Source of the DNA: Candidatus Acidiferrum sp.
GTDB lineage: Bacteria; Methylomirabilota; Methylomirabilia; Rokubacteriales; CSP1-6
Assembly (NCBI GenBank): GCA_035635775.1
Contig: DASQAL010000133.1
Location: forward strand, 1 to 61,850
DNA length: 61,850 bases
Direction: 5' to 3'
The stretch's first letter is position 1; each line of letters opens with the position of its first letter. Below are positions 25,926-29,748 of this stretch, one piece after another. The notes under the pieces were generated by a model. The model saw nothing but the letters and a program-made list of their open reading frames with translations. It was not told the origin of the DNA and made no database searches. The position numbers and the translations under genes are program-made.

Positions 25926-26747
25926 ATGGAAGGCGTCCAGCTCATCTTCGGCATCATCCCGGTCGCAATCATCCTGCTCTACATCTTCTTCTCCTCCTTC
26001 CGCATATTGCGGGAGTACGAGCGGGGCGTGATCTTCCGGTTCGGCCGGCGGACCAACGCGATCTTCAATCCCGGGGGCGACGGCACCGGCCCGGGTCTGG
26101 TGCTCTTGATCCCGTTCATCGACAAGATGGTGAAGGTGAGCCTCCGCACGATCACCATGGACGTGCCGCCCCAGGACGTGATCACGCGCGACAACGTGTC
26201 GATGAAGGTGAACGCGGTCATCTTCTTCCGCGTGCTGGACGCGGCCAAGGCGGTCATCAGCGTCGAGGACTATCTCTACGCGACCTCCCAGATGGCGCAG
26301 ACGACGCTCCGGAGCGTGCTGGGGCAGCAGCAGATGGACGACCTCCTGGCGAGCCGGGAGAAGATCAACGAGGAGCTGACGCGGATCATCGACCAGCACA
26401 CCAGTCCGTGGGGCGTGAAGGTGGCGGCGGTGGAGGTCAAGAACGTGGACCTGCCGCAGGACATGCAGCGCGCCATGTCCAAGCAGGCCGAGGCCGAGCG
26501 CGAGCGACGCGCCAAGGTGATCAACGCGGAGGGCGAATTCCAGGCCGCGGCCAAGCTCGGCGAGGCCGCCGAGGTCCTCATGCGCTTCCCGATCGCGGTG
26601 CAGCTCCGCTACCTGCAGACGATGCGGGAGGTCGCCTCGGAGCGGAACACCACGACCTTCTTCCCGCTGCCGCTCGACCTCTTCACCCCGCTCCTGCGGG
26701 CCTTCGGAGCGGATTCTCAGCCTCCCCCTCTGCCCCCCAAGAGCTGA
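25926..26747 (+). CDS. SPFH/stomatin-like (slipin) protein
   Basis: [51 protein letters not shown]; classic nfeD partner. Confidence 0.92.
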
Positions 26748-26814: not shown

Positions 26815-26890
26815 GGGGGGTTAGCTCAGTTGGGAGAGCGCGGCGTTCGCAACGCCGAGGTCGAGGGTTCGACTCCCTTACCCTCCACCA
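26815..26890 (+). tRNA. tRNA-Ala (anticodon CGC)
   Basis: 76 nt; acceptor stem GGGGGGT/ACCCTCC with G3:U70 Ala identity pair; D-loop AGTTGGGAGA; anticodon stem CGGCG/CGCCG with loop TTCGCAA; GGTTCGACTCC T-arm; encoded CCA. Confidence 0.97.
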
Positions 26891-27108: not shown

Positions 27109-27987
27109 ATGCCGAGAGACTCGGACTACGAGGTTTTGGGCCTACGGCCCGGCGCCTCGCTCGACGAGGCCAAACAAGCGCACCGCGATCTTGTCAAGGT
27201 CTGGCATCCAGACCGTTTCTCGAACGATCCAAGGCTTCAAGCAAGAGCGCAAGAGAAGCTGCAAGAGATCAATGCGGCCAACGACCGAGTGCGGGTGCTT
27301 CTATCGTCGCCGGGTACGAGATCCCAACCCTCGAGCTCGCCACCTCCTCGACCACCGTCGTCACCGCCTCCCCCGCCTCGACCTGCCGCGCCTCCACCTC
27401 CGCGCCCGCCCCAATCCCCGTCTCAGGCAGGAATTCCGCGTAAGAATGGCGGACTGGTCGTCGTCGGGCTCGCCCTCGTCCTGGTATTGGGCTCGGTGAT
27501 CTGGCGCCATGCCTACCAAGAGGATAGTTCGGACACCCACGAGAGCCCGATCCCCCTCCGGCCGCCCCAGAGCGACACCACCCCCCTCGCTCACCCAGCT
27601 CCGCCGTCGAGCCCACCGACCGGCGGACCGTCAGCCCCATCGACGCCTCGGGTCGAGACGCCATCGGAAAAGGCTTCACCAGGCCAGAGGACACGCTTGG
27701 AAAAGTCGGCCGCTGATGTTGCCGCTGCGACGAAGAACTACCGCGCCGCACTTGAACGGGTCCTGGGCATCTACGAGCGCGAGCTGGCACGACGCGCCGA
27801 GCAAGTGGAGTTGCGGAGGGACCTGTACGAGCGTGGTGTACTGAAGAAGCAGGAGTTCGACGAAGGACTGCGCGCACACGCGGACGCTCGGAAGAATGTC
27901 GAGGACACTCGGCGGGCGATCGAGGACACTGACAGACTACTCCGAGAGACTGAGGAGGCCGAGGCACTCGCAAGGCGCCCGAAGTAG
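27109..27987 (+). CDS. J-domain (DnaJ-like) membrane protein with Pro-rich linkers and C-terminal coiled coil
   Basis: YEVLGL...AHRDLVKVWHPDRF...QEINAA (HPD motif); TM LVVVGLALVLVLGSVIW; codon usage looks less GC-biased than neighbours. Confidence 0.8.
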   Translation: MPRDSDYEVLGLRPGASLDEAKQAHRDLVKVWHPDRFSNDPRLQARAQEKLQEINAANDRVRVLLSSPGTRSQPSSSPPPRPPSSPPPPPRPAAPPPPRPPQSPSQAGIPRKNGGLVVVGLALVLVLGSVIWRHAYQEDSSDTHESPIPLRPPQSDTTPLAHPAPPSSPPTGGPSAPSTPRVETPSEKASPGQRTRLEKSAADVAAATKNYRAALERVLGIYERELARRAEQVELRRDLYERGVLKKQEFDEGLRAHADARKNVEDTRRAIEDTDRLLRETEEAEALARRPK

Positions 27988-28069: not shown

Positions 28070-29098
28070 TCAGGGCGCCTTGCCGACCAGGTTGAGTACG
28101 CGGCCGGCCCGCAGCACCGTCACCGTGATGGGCACGCCCGGGGTCAGGCGCTGCAGGTGCTCCCGCATCCGGTTGTAGTCGGCGAGGTTCCCGGTGGGGA
28201 TGCCGTCCACCGCGAGCAGGATGTCTCCGCCAACCACCAGCGTCTGGCCGTCGATCGTGGCGGTCCGGTTCCCGCCGCGAATCCCCGCCTCCTCGGCGGG
28301 CGAGCCCTTGGCCACGGTCTTGACCAGGAAGCCCTCGGGCTGGGGCAGGTTGAAGATCGCGGCGAGGTCGCCAGAGAGGGTGTGGCCCTCGAGTCCGCTC
28401 CAGATGGAGCGCCGGGCGAGCAGGAGATCCTTGGCGGTGTTGATCGTCACCACGAAGCCGAGCCCCTCGCTCCCGCCGCCCTTCGAGATGTTGTGGCTCA
28501 CGATCCCGATGACGTCGCCCGCGATGCTGAACAGGGGCCCGCCGGAGTTGCCGGTGTTGATGGTGGCGTCGGTCTGGAAGAACTCGGCCAGGGGGAAGGC
28601 GGGGTACACGCTGTTCGGCGGCCAGCGGGCACTGACGTAGCCGACGCTCAGCGAGTACGCGAGCCCGTACGGCGCGCCCACCACCAGCACCTGGTCGCCC
28701 ACCCGGACCGAGCTCGAGTTGGCGAGGCGGGCGACCTTGACGCCCGCGGGCACGCGCTCGAGCTGGAGCAGCGAGAGGTCGGCGGCGGGCTCGGAGGCGA
28801 CGACGCGCGCCTTCACGGCCTCGCCCCCGATGAACTCCACGGTGATCTCGTCCATCGCGTGAACGACGTGGGCCGCCGTCATCACCTTGCCGTCGGCCGA
28901 GATCAGCACACCGGAGCCGATCTCTCCGAAGCGGACCTGGCCGGACGCGGCCACGTCCCGCCCGCGAGAGCGGATCACGACGACGGAGGGGCTCACCCGG
29001 CGGAAGACGTCACCCACCGCCTGGGCCCCGGCCGACACCGGCTGCCCGAGCGTGACGAGGGTGGCGAGCAGGAGAAGCGCGATGAACCGAACGGTCAT
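28070..29098 (-). CDS. HtrA/DegP-like S1C serine protease with one PDZ domain
   Basis: Signal peptide; GSGVLI, TAAHVV, DLSLL, QTDATINTGNSGGPL, SPAEEAGI (PDZ); GGAGG RBS. Confidence 0.92.
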   Translation of the reverse strand: MTVRFIALLLLATLVTLGQPVSAGAQAVGDVFRRVSPSVVVIRSRGRDVAASGQVRFGEIGSGVLISADGKVMTAAHVVHAMDEITVEFIGGEAVKARVVASEPAADLSLLQLERVPAGVKVARLANSSSVRVGDQVLVVGAPYGLAYSLSVGYVSARWPPNSVYPAFPLAEFFQTDATINTGNSGGPLFSIAGDVIGIVSHNISKGGGSEGLGFVVTINTAKDLLLARRSIWSGLEGHTLSGDLAAIFNLPQPEGFLVKTVAKGSPAEEAGIRGGNRTATIDGQTLVVGGDILLAVDGIPTGNLADYNRMREHLQRLTPGVPITVTVLRAGRVLNLVGKAP

Positions 29099-29220
29099 GC
29101 CGGACCTCCTCGTCGGGACATTCGCGATGATCTTCCCACCCTCGCCCGGTTTCGGCTACCCTGACCAGCGGCGGTGAGACTCGCGCTGATGAAGCGGGTG
29201 CGGAAGGGCGGGGAGGGGAG

Positions 29221-29346
29221 CTAGGCGCGCTTGGCGACGGCGGGGCGGCCGGACTTCGGGCACATCTTGTGGCGCCAGACCGAGCCCAGCTTAATGTGGT
29301 TGCCGTTCTTCCGGATGCGCAGCTTGCACTTGGGACAGGTACCCAT
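29221..29346 (-). CDS. 41-aa basic zinc-finger microprotein (C-x2-C-x18-H-x2-C)
   Basis: MGTCPKCKLRIRKNGNHIKLGSVWRHKMCPKSGRPAVAKRA; GGAGG 8 nt upstream of ATG; TATAAT about 50 nt upstream. Confidence 0.7.
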   Translation of the reverse strand: MGTCPKCKLRIRKNGNHIKLGSVWRHKMCPKSGRPAVAKRA

Positions 29347-29394
29347 ATCGTTGTCCTCCAACGGATTCGCGGACGGGATGGCGTTGCGTCGAGC

Positions 29395-29400
29395 ATTATA
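29395..29400 (-). promoter_or_regulatory. -10 element (TATAAT) for the zinc-finger microprotein
   Basis: Perfect TATAAT hexamer in a 70% GC background, correctly oriented. Confidence 0.6.
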
Positions 29401-29418
29401 CACGAGCCGGGAGGCCCC

Positions 29419-29744
29419 GTGACCCAGAGCTGCGCCTTCTGCCGCATCGCCGCGAAGGAAAGCCCCGCCGAGATCGAGTACGAGGACGATCAGGTCGTGG
29501 CGTTCCGGGACCTGTACCCGAAGGCGCCGATCCACCTGCTGATCGTCCCGAAGCGCCACATCGAGTCACTCGCACGGCTCGAGCCCCGCGACACCGAAGT
29601 GATCGGCCGGTGCATGCAGGTGGCGCGGCTCCTCGGCGAGCGCACCGGGTACGCCGAGCGGGGCTACCGCGTGTCCTGCAACACGGGGCCCGAGGGCGGG
29701 CAGGTGGTCTACCACATCCACTTCCACTTCACCGCCGGCCGCCG

Positions 29745-29748
<4 letters not shown>
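29419..29748 (+). CDS. HIT (histidine triad) family hydrolase, Hint-like
   Basis: CAFCRI, AFRDLYPKAPIHLLIVPKRH, GQVVYHIHFH; GGAGG RBS and GTG start. Confidence 0.92.

What the first reader, a model, noticed from the sequence alone, without database searches (positions are those of the whole stretch)
29221..29400. 41-aa stand-alone zinc-finger microprotein with its own promoter and RBS
Seen: MGTCPKCKLRIRKNGNHIKLGSVWRHKMCPKSGRPAVAKRA, strongly basic with no acidic residues, a GGAGG RBS and a perfect TATAAT. Known: C-x2-C-x18-H-x2-C fits the spacing of the first finger of LIM domains (treble-clef type). Inference: a nucleic-acid- or ribosome-associated microprotein that gene callers would likely miss; no family recognised.
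Basis: partly seen in the sequence, partly recalled or inferred. Interest (0 to 1): 0.62.

Follow-up and report, generated by a model that had tools for sequence, protein, structure and literature searches.

The report
Conserved zinc-finger microprotein of Rokubacteria
This is a real, transcribed 41-residue zinc-finger protein, kept in one copy by nearly every genome of one family of uncultured soil Rokubacteria, always head-to-head with a HinT-like HIT gene; its function is untested but is probably nucleic-acid binding.

Summary
Window 29221-29346 (minus strand) encodes MGTCPKCKLRIRKNGNHIKLGSVWRHKMCPKSGRPAVAKRA, with GGAGGA 7 nt before the ATG and TATAAT at 29395-29400.

It is a real gene:
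- pN/pS is 0.16 with near-saturated synonymous change.
- C4, C7, H26 and C29 are invariant in 80 of 80 species.
- It is present once in 61 of 67 high-quality genomes of its own GTDB family, and in about 0 of 37 elsewhere in the phylum.
- Six metatranscriptomes from several studies carry short contigs over this gene but not over the neighbouring HIT gene.

No Pfam, NCBIfam, PHROG, PADLOC or PDB family matches. AlphaFold gives a confident single finger. Its nearest folds are first fingers of LIM domains, but the matches are not significant. It does not replace a ribosomal protein. Distant relatives sit in phage DNA-metabolism modules.

A HinT-like HIT gene lies divergently upstream in 79 of 80 species. 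The TATAAT box sits a fixed 16-20 nt from the HIT start, while its distance to the microprotein ATG varies from 22 to 54 nt. This suggests one shared bidirectional -10 element.

Function is inferred, not shown: an abundant, basic, zinc-stabilised nucleic-acid binder. It is an undescribed family of a known kind, of moderate interest.

The parts
29221..29346 (-). Coding sequence of the 41-aa CCHC zinc-finger microprotein (the stop TAG at 29223..29221 is included)
   Evidence: translation; pN/pS 0.16; C4, C7, H26, C29, W24, the N14-G15-N16-H17 stretch and K19-L20-G21 invariant in 80/80; AlphaFold pLDDT about 85 over residues 1-30
29354..29359 (-). Shine-Dalgarno GGAGGA, 7 nt upstream of the ATG
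   Evidence: GGAG or GAGG lies within 18 nt of the ATG in 73/74 distinct orthologous upstream regions
29347..29388 (-). Predicted 5' leader of about 42 nt. The transcription start is inferred, not mapped
   Evidence: Inferred from the -10 box position. Metatranscriptome contigs reach 29357-29370
29395..29400 (.). -10 box. It reads TATAAT on the minus strand for the microprotein. The overlapping CATTAT (29394-29399) on the plus strand is a candidate -10 for the HIT gene. Proposed shared bidirectional promoter core
   Evidence: The box lies 16-20 nt from HIT codon 1 in 63/78 loci but 22-54 nt from the microprotein ATG. The reverse-strand hexamer has A2 and T6 in 78/78 loci and matches at least 4 of 6 positions in 66/78
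29099..29220 (-). 3' untranslated region between the microprotein stop and the htrA start. It is covered by the same RNA contigs as the ORF. No terminator and no significant structure was found
   Evidence: contigs end at 29102-29145; no terminator; fold z = -0.49; no Rfam family; conserved only within the genus
29419..29748 (+). Divergent HinT-like HIT gene (109 aa, GTG start; SD GGGAGG at 29409-29414). It is the conserved neighbour
   Evidence: PF01230 HIT, 1.6e-23; DcpS_C; NF007965 purine nucleoside phosphoramidase, 92.9 bits, below the equivalog cut-off; divergent and adjacent in 21/21 and 79/80 loci

Best explanation
Window 29221-29346 (minus strand) is a real, expressed, monocistronic gene. 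It encodes a 4.6-kDa protein made of one zinc finger (ligands C4, C7, H26, C29) followed by a short, disordered, basic Ala/Pro/Lys/Arg tail.

It is a single-copy core gene of one GTDB family of Rokubacteria (phylum Methylomirabilota). It is also found in at least one sister family of the same order.

The most likely function is an abundant nucleic-acid-binding protein. Zinc would hold a small beta-hairpin that displays seven conserved basic residues and an invariant Trp, and the basic tail would add non-specific affinity.

The gene is locked head-to-head to a HinT-like HIT gene because the two appear to share a single AT-rich -10 element that can be read on both strands. Predicted start sites are about 18 bp apart. 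TATAAT is the strong direction, towards the microprotein. CATTAT or TATTAT is the weaker direction, towards HIT.

Shown here: the gene is real, it is under selection, it is transcribed, its taxonomic distribution, its synteny, and the promoter geometry.

Inferred: zinc binding, nucleic-acid binding, bidirectional firing, and which nucleic acid is bound.
For: Real and selected:
- pN/pS 0.16 with pS 0.48.
- The 30-aa core is 88% identical on average, against 72% for the adjacent HIT protein. It is the more conserved of the two in 78/79 loci.

Core and single copy:
- One copy in its own genome.
- Present in 61/67 high-quality genomes of the family, always once.
- Present in 61/104 high-quality genomes of the phylum sample, all of them in the family.
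- 108 confirmed loci among 185,579 species, all of them Rokubacteria or Methylomirabilota MAGs, some filed under other names in their NCBI record titles.

Expression signals: a TATAAT or TATACT box in 72/74 upstream regions and an SD in 73/74.

Transcription:
- True metatranscriptomes X29, X36, X37, X51, X55 and X56 each give contigs of 190-300 nt over the ORF plus its 3'UTR.
- These runs give essentially nothing over HIT.
- Runs that look like DNA, such as X26, cover the whole stretch evenly.

Fold:
- AlphaFold pLDDT is about 85 for residues 1-30, with a hairpin at 17-20 and 23-26 and a disordered tail.
- A phage relative gives the same finger.
- The nearest PDB folds are zinc-binding first fingers of LIM domains.

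Nucleic-acid inference:
- Charge about +11.6 with no acidic residue.
- The basic positions K6, K8, R10, R12, K13, K19 and K27 are conserved.
- Some homologues carry long tails rich in Ala, Lys and Pro, for example P0122.
- Phage relatives lie among RecA, 5'-3' exonuclease, Hc1, HU, PD-(D/E)XK and ThyX genes.

Shared promoter:
- HIT is divergent in 79/80 and 21/21 loci, with a median 66-bp gap.
- The box-to-HIT distance is 16-20 nt in 63/78 loci, while the box-to-ATG distance varies from 22 to 54 nt.
- The downstream neighbour is not conserved: 47 clusters among 68 loci.
- Bidirectional promoters with start sites about 18 bp apart are an established bacterial class (PMC12825309).
Against: - No experiment or homology links the protein to any function.
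- LIM-type fingers usually bind proteins, not nucleic acids.
- The Foldseek matches are not significant: E about 0.7 against the PDB and at least 0.5 against BFVD, the viral structure library.
- Model coordinates could not be inspected, so the zinc-site geometry was not checked.
- RNA evidence comes from assembled contigs, with no strand information and no quantification. X49 shows a contig running from htrA into the ORF, so read-through or DNA carry-over cannot be excluded.
- No -35 element was found.
- The start sites are not mapped, so bidirectional firing is purely geometric inference.
- Synteny within a single family or order could partly reflect limited divergence.
Confidence: 0.55

Rival explanations
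1. It is a dedicated transcription factor. The microprotein binds the short intergenic region and regulates the divergent HIT gene (plus phnCE where present) and itself, as in classic conserved divergent regulator-target pairs.
For: The divergent pairing with HIT is conserved in 79/80 species and also in a sister family. Conserved bidirectionally transcribed pairs often include a regulator (general knowledge, Korbel et al. 2004). There is a precedent in small zinc-finger regulators such as Brz of Halobacterium (PMC2253796, listed). The protein is basic.
Against: A consensus -10 box, a strong SD and RNA contigs that exceed those of its neighbours point to an abundant protein, which is not typical of a local regulator. 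No conserved operator-like palindrome was seen in the intergenic alignments. Phage relatives have no HIT neighbour. A single 30-residue finger gives little sequence specificity.
Confidence: 0.15
2. It is a protein-binding adaptor or partner of the HIT enzyme. One version is a split, aprataxin-like HIT plus zinc-finger pair that acts on adenylated nucleic-acid or protein substrates. Another is a LIM-like module for protein interaction.
For: The linkage to HIT is near-universal. The fold is closest to LIM fingers, which bind proteins. Aprataxin combines a HIT domain with a zinc finger (general knowledge).
Against: The genes are divergent, not co-transcribed, and the RNA contig evidence is very unequal between them. 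No HIT-finger fusion exists among the hits from a library of 1.84 billion representative proteins; all longer hits are over-extended starts. The ligand pattern C2HC with an 18-residue spacer differs from the C2H2 finger of aprataxin. The promoter geometry already explains the linkage.
Confidence: 0.12
3. It is a lineage-specific protein associated with the ribosome or with RNA polymerase. It would be an extra small subunit, in the way bS22, bL37 or RbpA are lineage-specific in Actinobacteria.
For: Its sequence conservation is very high (88% core identity), it is single-copy and core in its family, it has strong expression signals, and it is very basic.
Against: It does not lie in a ribosomal or RNA polymerase operon. 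No Pfam family reached its cut-off, ribosomal ones included. All the usual small and zinc-binding ribosomal proteins are present, so nothing is being replaced. Phage relatives sit in DNA-metabolism modules.
Confidence: 0.1
4. It is a chance open frame in GC-rich DNA, or an untranslated leader or antisense feature of the HIT or htrA genes.
For: High-GC genomes are full of spurious ORFs. A 112-aa frame runs through the same place.
Against: pN/pS is 0.16, with synonymous changes at nearly every codon. The Cys and His residues are invariant in 80/80 species. The SD and -10 box are conserved. The longer frames are antisense-of-HIT artefacts.
Confidence: 0.01

Closest known systems
First zinc finger of eukaryotic LIM domains (PF00412; for example PDB 1wyh, 1x4k, 2xjy)
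   Same: The ligand pattern is C-x2-C-x16-23-H-x2-C, with an aromatic residue two positions before the His (W-x-H-K-x-C here, against W/F-H-x-x-C in LIM). The predicted structure superposes on LIM first fingers at about 1.0-1.2 A over 28 residues, and these are the top PDB hits.
   Different: There is only one finger, whereas LIM has two interlocked fingers in about 55 aa. The LIM HMM does not match the window protein, and it matches only 1 of 19 relatives, at E = 0.096. This protein is bacterial and phage-borne, stand-alone and strongly basic. Convergence on a small metal-knuckle fold is the likeliest relation.
One-domain zinc-finger micro-proteins of Archaea (Haloferax C(P)XCG proteins such as HVO_2753 and HVO_0758; Brz of Halobacterium)
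   Same: These are stand-alone proteins of under 70 aa that consist of a single zinc-binding domain. Some regulate neighbouring genes or stress responses (PMC6562870, PMC10716476, PMC11241148, PMC2253796).
   Different: There is no sequence relation. Those proteins carry two C(P)XCG knuckles (Cys4). This one has CPKC plus H-K-x-C-P (Cys3His), a different spacing, a basic tail, and a bacterial and phage distribution.
N-terminal zinc ribbon of HMPTM / GDGT-MAS radical-SAM enzymes (Pfam PF23545)
   Same: It is the only Pfam model that repeatedly aligns over the whole finger. It matches 13 of 19 family members, with a best E of 2.9e-5 at 24 bits. This also explains a stray JGI 'radical SAM' label on one homologue (P0096).
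   Different: Every score is below the 27-bit cut-off, and the window protein scores only 10.3 bits. That domain is the N-terminal domain of a large archaeal enzyme (UniProt HMPTM_METJA, PMC9433317), not a free basic microprotein.
Bidirectional bacterial promoters with a pseudo-symmetrical -10 element (Warman, Grainger and colleagues)
   Same: One AT-rich hexamer can be read on both strands. The predicted divergent start sites are about 18 bp apart, which is the commonest spacing reported (PMC12825309). Two mRNAs are produced.
   Different: Here the arrangement is inferred from conserved geometry only. No start sites are mapped.

Membership tests
LIM domain (PF00412) | Two tandem zinc fingers (CCHC, then CCCC, CCCH or CCCD) in about 55 residues | tested here: not met
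   The protein has 41 aa with only C4, C7, C29 and H17, H26. There is a single finger, and the tail has no further Cys or His.
LIM domain (PF00412) | First-finger spacing C-x2-C-x16-23-H-x2-C | tested here: met
   C4-x2-C7-x18-H26-x2-C29. The four ligands are invariant in 80/80 species-level loci, and the spacing is the same in the aligned homologues.
LIM domain (PF00412) | Match to the family HMM above its gathering score (22.9 bits) | tested here: not met
   No LIM hit for the window protein at E <= 1. One phage relative scores 13.4 bits, E = 0.096.
LIM domain (PF00412) | LIM-finger fold | tested here: inconclusive
   The top Foldseek PDB hits are LIM domains: TM normalised to the query about 0.6, rmsd 1.0-1.2 A over 28 columns. 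But E is 0.7-8, which is not significant for so small a model.
Zn_ribbon_HMPTM (PF23545) | HMM score of at least 27 bits | tested here: not met
   The window protein scores 10.3 bits. The best relative scores 24.0 bits. 13 of 19 members match below threshold.
Bacterial small or zinc-binding ribosomal proteins (bL36, bL33, bL32, bL31, bL28, bL34, uS14, bS18) | Sequence membership, or replacement of a missing orthologue | tested here: not met
   No Pfam or NCBIfam family, ribosomal ones included, reached its cut-off. bL36, bL31, bL32, bL35, bS21, bL28, bS18 and uS14 were found in this genome. bL33 is in 19/31 and bL34 in 20/21 genomes of the family, including genomes that carry the microprotein.
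Haloarchaeal C(P)XCG zinc-finger micro-proteins | Two C(P)XCG motifs | tested here: not met
   The motifs here are CPKCK and HKMCP. There is no CxxCG motif.
Aprataxin-type HIT plus C2H2 zinc finger | A C2H2 finger fused C-terminally to the HIT domain | tested here: not met
   The genes are separate and divergent. The ligands are C2HC with an 18-residue spacer. No fusion was found among the hits from 1.84 billion representatives.
Bidirectional sigma-70 promoter | A -10-like hexamer with A2 and T6 on both strands, overlapping | tested here: met
   TATAAT on the minus strand and CATTAT on the plus strand in the window. The reverse-strand hexamer has A2 and T6 in 78/78 orthologous loci and matches at least 4 of 6 positions in 66/78.
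Bidirectional sigma-70 promoter | Divergent transcription start sites about 10, 18 or 23 bp apart, mapped experimentally | not testable with these tools
   Only assembled RNA contigs without strand or 5'-end information were available. The 18-bp separation is a prediction.

The most novel reading that the evidence does not exclude
The microprotein could be a lineage-defining protein of Rokubacteriales, shared with or exchanged with phages and conserved nearly as strongly as a ribosomal protein. It would act as a global nucleic-acid-associated factor, either nucleoid-associated or associated with RNA polymerase or the ribosome. Its expression would be mechanically coupled to HinT by RNA polymerase competing for the two orientations of a single shared -10 element. 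Under this reading it would be a new class of bacterial chromatin or transcription accessory protein, built from a single LIM-like finger.
Probability: 0.15. Interest if true: 0.65.

Novelty: new member of a known kind. Interest (0 to 1): 0.42.

Why it matters
Rokubacteria are abundant, uncultured soil and groundwater bacteria, and almost nothing is known about their lineage-specific core genes. This microprotein is more conserved than its enzyme neighbour and shows strong expression signals. It is missing from every curated family library and is often annotated with the wrong start. It is therefore a concrete, synthesisable target (4.6 kDa) for work on small proteins. The conserved 16-20 nt spacing between its TATAAT box and the divergent HIT start is also a natural, evolutionarily conserved test case for bidirectional -10 elements outside Enterobacteria. 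The biology is still of a familiar kind, a small basic zinc finger, and nothing here points to a new mechanism.

Tried and rejected
- Curated family libraries. Pfam, NCBIfam, PHROGs, PADLOC and a PDB sequence profile gave no significant hit.
- tblastn against 50,697 GenBank phage records gave only noise, E >= 4.
- IMG/VR scan. The mixed alignment confirmed nothing. The alignment of phage-type relatives alone found one 81.6-kb viral contig.
- Ribosomal-protein replacement was rejected.
- A conserved 3'UTR element or small RNA. A 42-nt stretch (29129-29170) looked perfectly conserved in RNA contigs. However, it is conserved only within the genus, it has no significant fold (z = -0.49), and it has no Rfam match. 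It was dropped.
- No intrinsic terminator and no full -35/-10 promoter was found by the consensus scan.
- A conserved downstream partner gene. htrA follows in only 5/74 loci, and downstream genes fall into 47 clusters among 68 loci. Rejected.
- Fusion to HIT or to other domains. The longer database entries are start-codon over-extensions that read antisense to HIT.
- Runs labelled 'GENOMIC RNA-Seq' (X25, X26, X28) behave like DNA, with even coverage. They were not used as expression evidence.
- The genome-contig scan with the mixed alignment A2 failed for lack of a conserved block, so A1 was used instead.

Full report
**1. Observation**

- GGAGGA lies at 29359..29354, 7 nt before the ATG. TATAAT lies at 29400..29395.
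- The protein is 4.6 kDa, pI 11.5, charge about +11.6, with no Asp or Glu.
- The consensus scan finds no -35 partner and no terminator.
- The ORF list shows a 112-aa frame through the same codons. That frame, like the 46-112-aa versions in public protein sets, is an over-extension upstream of the true ATG that reads antisense to the neighbouring HIT gene.

**2. It is a real gene**

- A word-indexed search of 5.8 billion proteins returned 123 homologues. All are unnamed or 'hypothetical', and those with names come from Rokubacteria or Methylomirabilota MAGs.
- Their alignment starts at the same MGTCPKC and keeps the C/C/H/C positions.
- Across 21 orthologous loci the first 30 codons show pS = 0.48 and pN = 0.075, so pN/pS = 0.16. 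Synonymous variants occur at almost every codon with degeneracy, while Cys, His, Trp, Asn-Gly-Asn-His and Lys-Leu-Gly stay fixed.
- In 80 species-level loci, C4, C7, H26 and C29 are invariant. The core is 88% identical on average, against 72% for the adjacent HIT protein, and it is the more conserved of the two in 78 of 79 loci.

**3. Distribution**

- The window's own genome has one copy.
- In its GTDB family, 61 of 67 high-quality genomes have exactly one copy. For comparison, in the samples of family genomes searched, the universal bL33 is detectable in 16 of 28 high-quality genomes and bL34 in 18 of 19. The microprotein therefore behaves as a core gene.
- In a phylum-wide sample, 61 of 104 high-quality genomes are positive, all inside the family. 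That leaves roughly 37 high-quality genomes from other families with none.
- There are two exceptions. One genome of a sister family in the same order has MGTCRKCKQKIRRNGNHVKIGQTWVHKICP, again with a TATAAT box, an SD and a divergent HIT gene. One more distant genome has a weak, longer relative without HIT.
- An exact-pattern scan of 185,579 species genomes found 108 confirmed loci. The 80 loci returned are Rokubacteria or Methylomirabilota MAGs, though some SMAG records carry other names in their NCBI titles. At least one such record is the same contig as a genome that GTDB places in this genus.
- An exhaustive HMMER search of 1.84 billion representative proteins found only 39 clusters at E < 1e-3.

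**4. Phage relatives**

The weakest hits of that search share the pattern M-x-x-C-P-x-C-K-x-R-I ... N ... W-x-H-K-x-C-P. They come from AT-richer contigs. Their contexts are phage-like:
- Runs of tiny overlapping ORFs.
- An 82-kb contig with RecA, a 5'-3' exonuclease, Hc1, SbcCD-like genes and a PD-(D/E)XK-like gene (faint Pfam hit).
- Two overlapping contigs of about 8.5 and 10.6 kb, from different assemblies, carrying ThyX.
- An 81.6-kb IMG/VR viral contig where the 36-aa relative sits among ORFs that look, by eye, like a Cas4/RecB-type nuclease, an NlpC/P60 hydrolase, an HU-like protein and a NUDIX hydrolase. These labels are my reading of the translations and were not checked against any family library.

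In the wider family the invariant positions are C4, C7, K8, H26, K27, C29 and P30. I11, N16 and W24 are nearly invariant, while H17 is not conserved. This fixes the ligand set as C4, C7, H26 and C29. No PHROG or PADLOC family matches.

**5. Structure**

- AlphaFold2 with the family alignment gives pLDDT of about 85 for residues 1-30, with a beta-hairpin at 17-20 and 23-26 and a disordered tail.
- A phage relative gives the same finger followed by a C-terminal helix instead of the basic tail.
- Foldseek against the PDB ranks LIM domains first (1wyh, 3ixe, 1x4k, LMO2 and others), at rmsd 1.0-1.6 A over 25-28 columns. PHD and RING fingers follow. All have E >= 0.7. Viral models give similar, non-significant RING- or LIM-like small phage proteins.
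- The PDB sequence profile search is empty.
- The only recurrent Pfam signal is sub-threshold: PF23545, the N-terminal zinc ribbon of HMPTM/GDGT-MAS. It matches 13 of 19 members, best 24 bits against a cut-off of 27.
The protein fails LIM membership because it has one finger and no HMM match.

**6. Genomic context and promoter**

- Downstream on the same strand lies an HtrA-type protease (28070-29098). Upstream and divergent lies a 109-aa HIT protein (29419-29748), HinT-like, followed by a phnC/phnE-like ABC transporter.
- HIT is divergent and adjacent in 21/21 loci from the phylum search and in 79/80 species loci, with a median gap of 66 bp.
- htrA follows in only 5/74 loci, phnC follows HIT in 29/74, and downstream genes fall into 47 clusters among 68 loci.
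- A TATAAT (59) or TATACT (13) box is present in 72 of 74 distinct upstream regions, and an SD in 73 of 74, in DNA of 67.6% GC.
- The box is 22-54 nt from the microprotein ATG, but 16-20 nt from HIT codon 1 in 63 of 78 loci (30 at 18 nt, 19 at 19 nt). Its reverse complement reads TATTAT (36 loci), CATTAT (18), GATTAT (6) or nAGTAT, always with A2 and T6.
- In the window this predicts a minus-strand start near 29388 and a plus-strand start near 29406. These are 18 bp apart, and the plus-strand start lies just upstream of the HIT SD (29409-29414).
- An 18-bp separation is the commonest geometry of bacterial bidirectional promoters (PMC12825309).
- I therefore read the invariant pairing as, at least in part, a consequence of one shared -10 element. 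This is inference; no start site is mapped.

**7. Transcription**

- Runs labelled RNA but with a 'GENOMIC' source cover the whole 1.2 kb evenly and were treated as DNA.
- True metatranscriptomes behave differently:
  - X29 (soil) has one 228-nt contig over 29102-29329 with one mismatch.
  - X36 and X37 (ice) have 247-nt and 229-nt contigs over 29129-29346 and 29145-29370, at word depth 16-20, with about 0-5 on the unique flanks.
  - X51, X55 and X56 (soil, other studies) have contigs of 190-303 nt from close relatives over the coding core and the 3'UTR.
  - None of these runs has a contig over the 5' two-thirds of HIT.
  - X49 has a 552-nt contig running from htrA into the ORF.
- This supports a discrete, comparatively abundant short transcript. 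Contigs carry no strand information and are poor measures of abundance.

**8. Function**

Homology gives no function. The inference of nucleic-acid binding rests on four points:
- the extreme and conserved positive charge (seven conserved basic positions within 30 residues);
- the invariant Trp;
- the Ala/Pro/Lys/Arg tails, which reach 50 residues in some homologues (P0122);
- the DNA-metabolism neighbourhood of the phage relatives.

Alternatives are a local regulator of HIT, a protein partner of HIT (a split aprataxin-like arrangement), or a ribosome- or RNA-polymerase-associated subunit. Replacement of a standard ribosomal protein is excluded. No HIT-finger fusion exists among the hits from 1.84 billion representatives.

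**9. Verdict**

This is an undescribed family of a familiar kind, the one-domain zinc-finger microprotein. It is lineage-restricted, core in its family, transcribed and under strong selection, with phage relatives and a neat, testable shared-promoter arrangement with hinT. Interest is moderate.

Noticed in passing
window 29394-29421 and orthologous loci L028-L107: The -10 box is held 16-20 nt from the HIT start codon in 63/78 species, while its distance to the microprotein ATG floats between 22 and 54 nt. This fits a shared bidirectional -10 element, with HIT mRNA carrying a leader of only about 13 nt.
   Followed up: partly
protein P0138 (214 aa, from the representative library): This is a secreted-looking protein built from about six tandem copies of a 13-14-residue unit, NGNH-x-KLGTT-x-YH. 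The unit resembles the hairpin core of the microprotein (NGNHIKLGSVWRH) but has no Cys ligands. It is unclear whether this is common ancestry or chance.
   Followed up: no
window 29745-29748: The HIT stop codon overlaps the GTG start of the phnC-like ABC ATPase (GTGA), which suggests translational coupling. phnC follows HIT in only 29/74 related loci.
   Followed up: partly
window 26815-26890 (+): A tRNA-Ala(CGC) gene lies between the SPFH/HflK-like gene (25926-26747) and a DnaJ-domain, proline-rich protein (27109-27987). In 9 related loci the SPFH gene lies directly downstream of the microprotein, convergent to it. The htrA/DnaJ block therefore looks like an insertion specific to this genus.
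   Followed up: no
window 29129-29170 (minus-strand 3'UTR, upstream of htrA): A 42-nt stretch is identical in RNA contigs of several relatives even where the microprotein tail has indels. It is conserved only within the genus, has no significant fold and no Rfam match. It could be an htrA promoter or leader element.
   Followed up: partly
NCBI record titles of loci L028, L038, L051, L061, L072: Several SMAG MAG records that carry this Rokubacteria-specific locus are titled as Limnocylindria, Deferrimicrobiaceae, Acidoferrum, Dormiibacterota or even Nitrosocosmicus. Judged by this marker, by the HIT neighbour and, for L038, by GTDB placement in this genus, these names look like mislabels.
   Followed up: no
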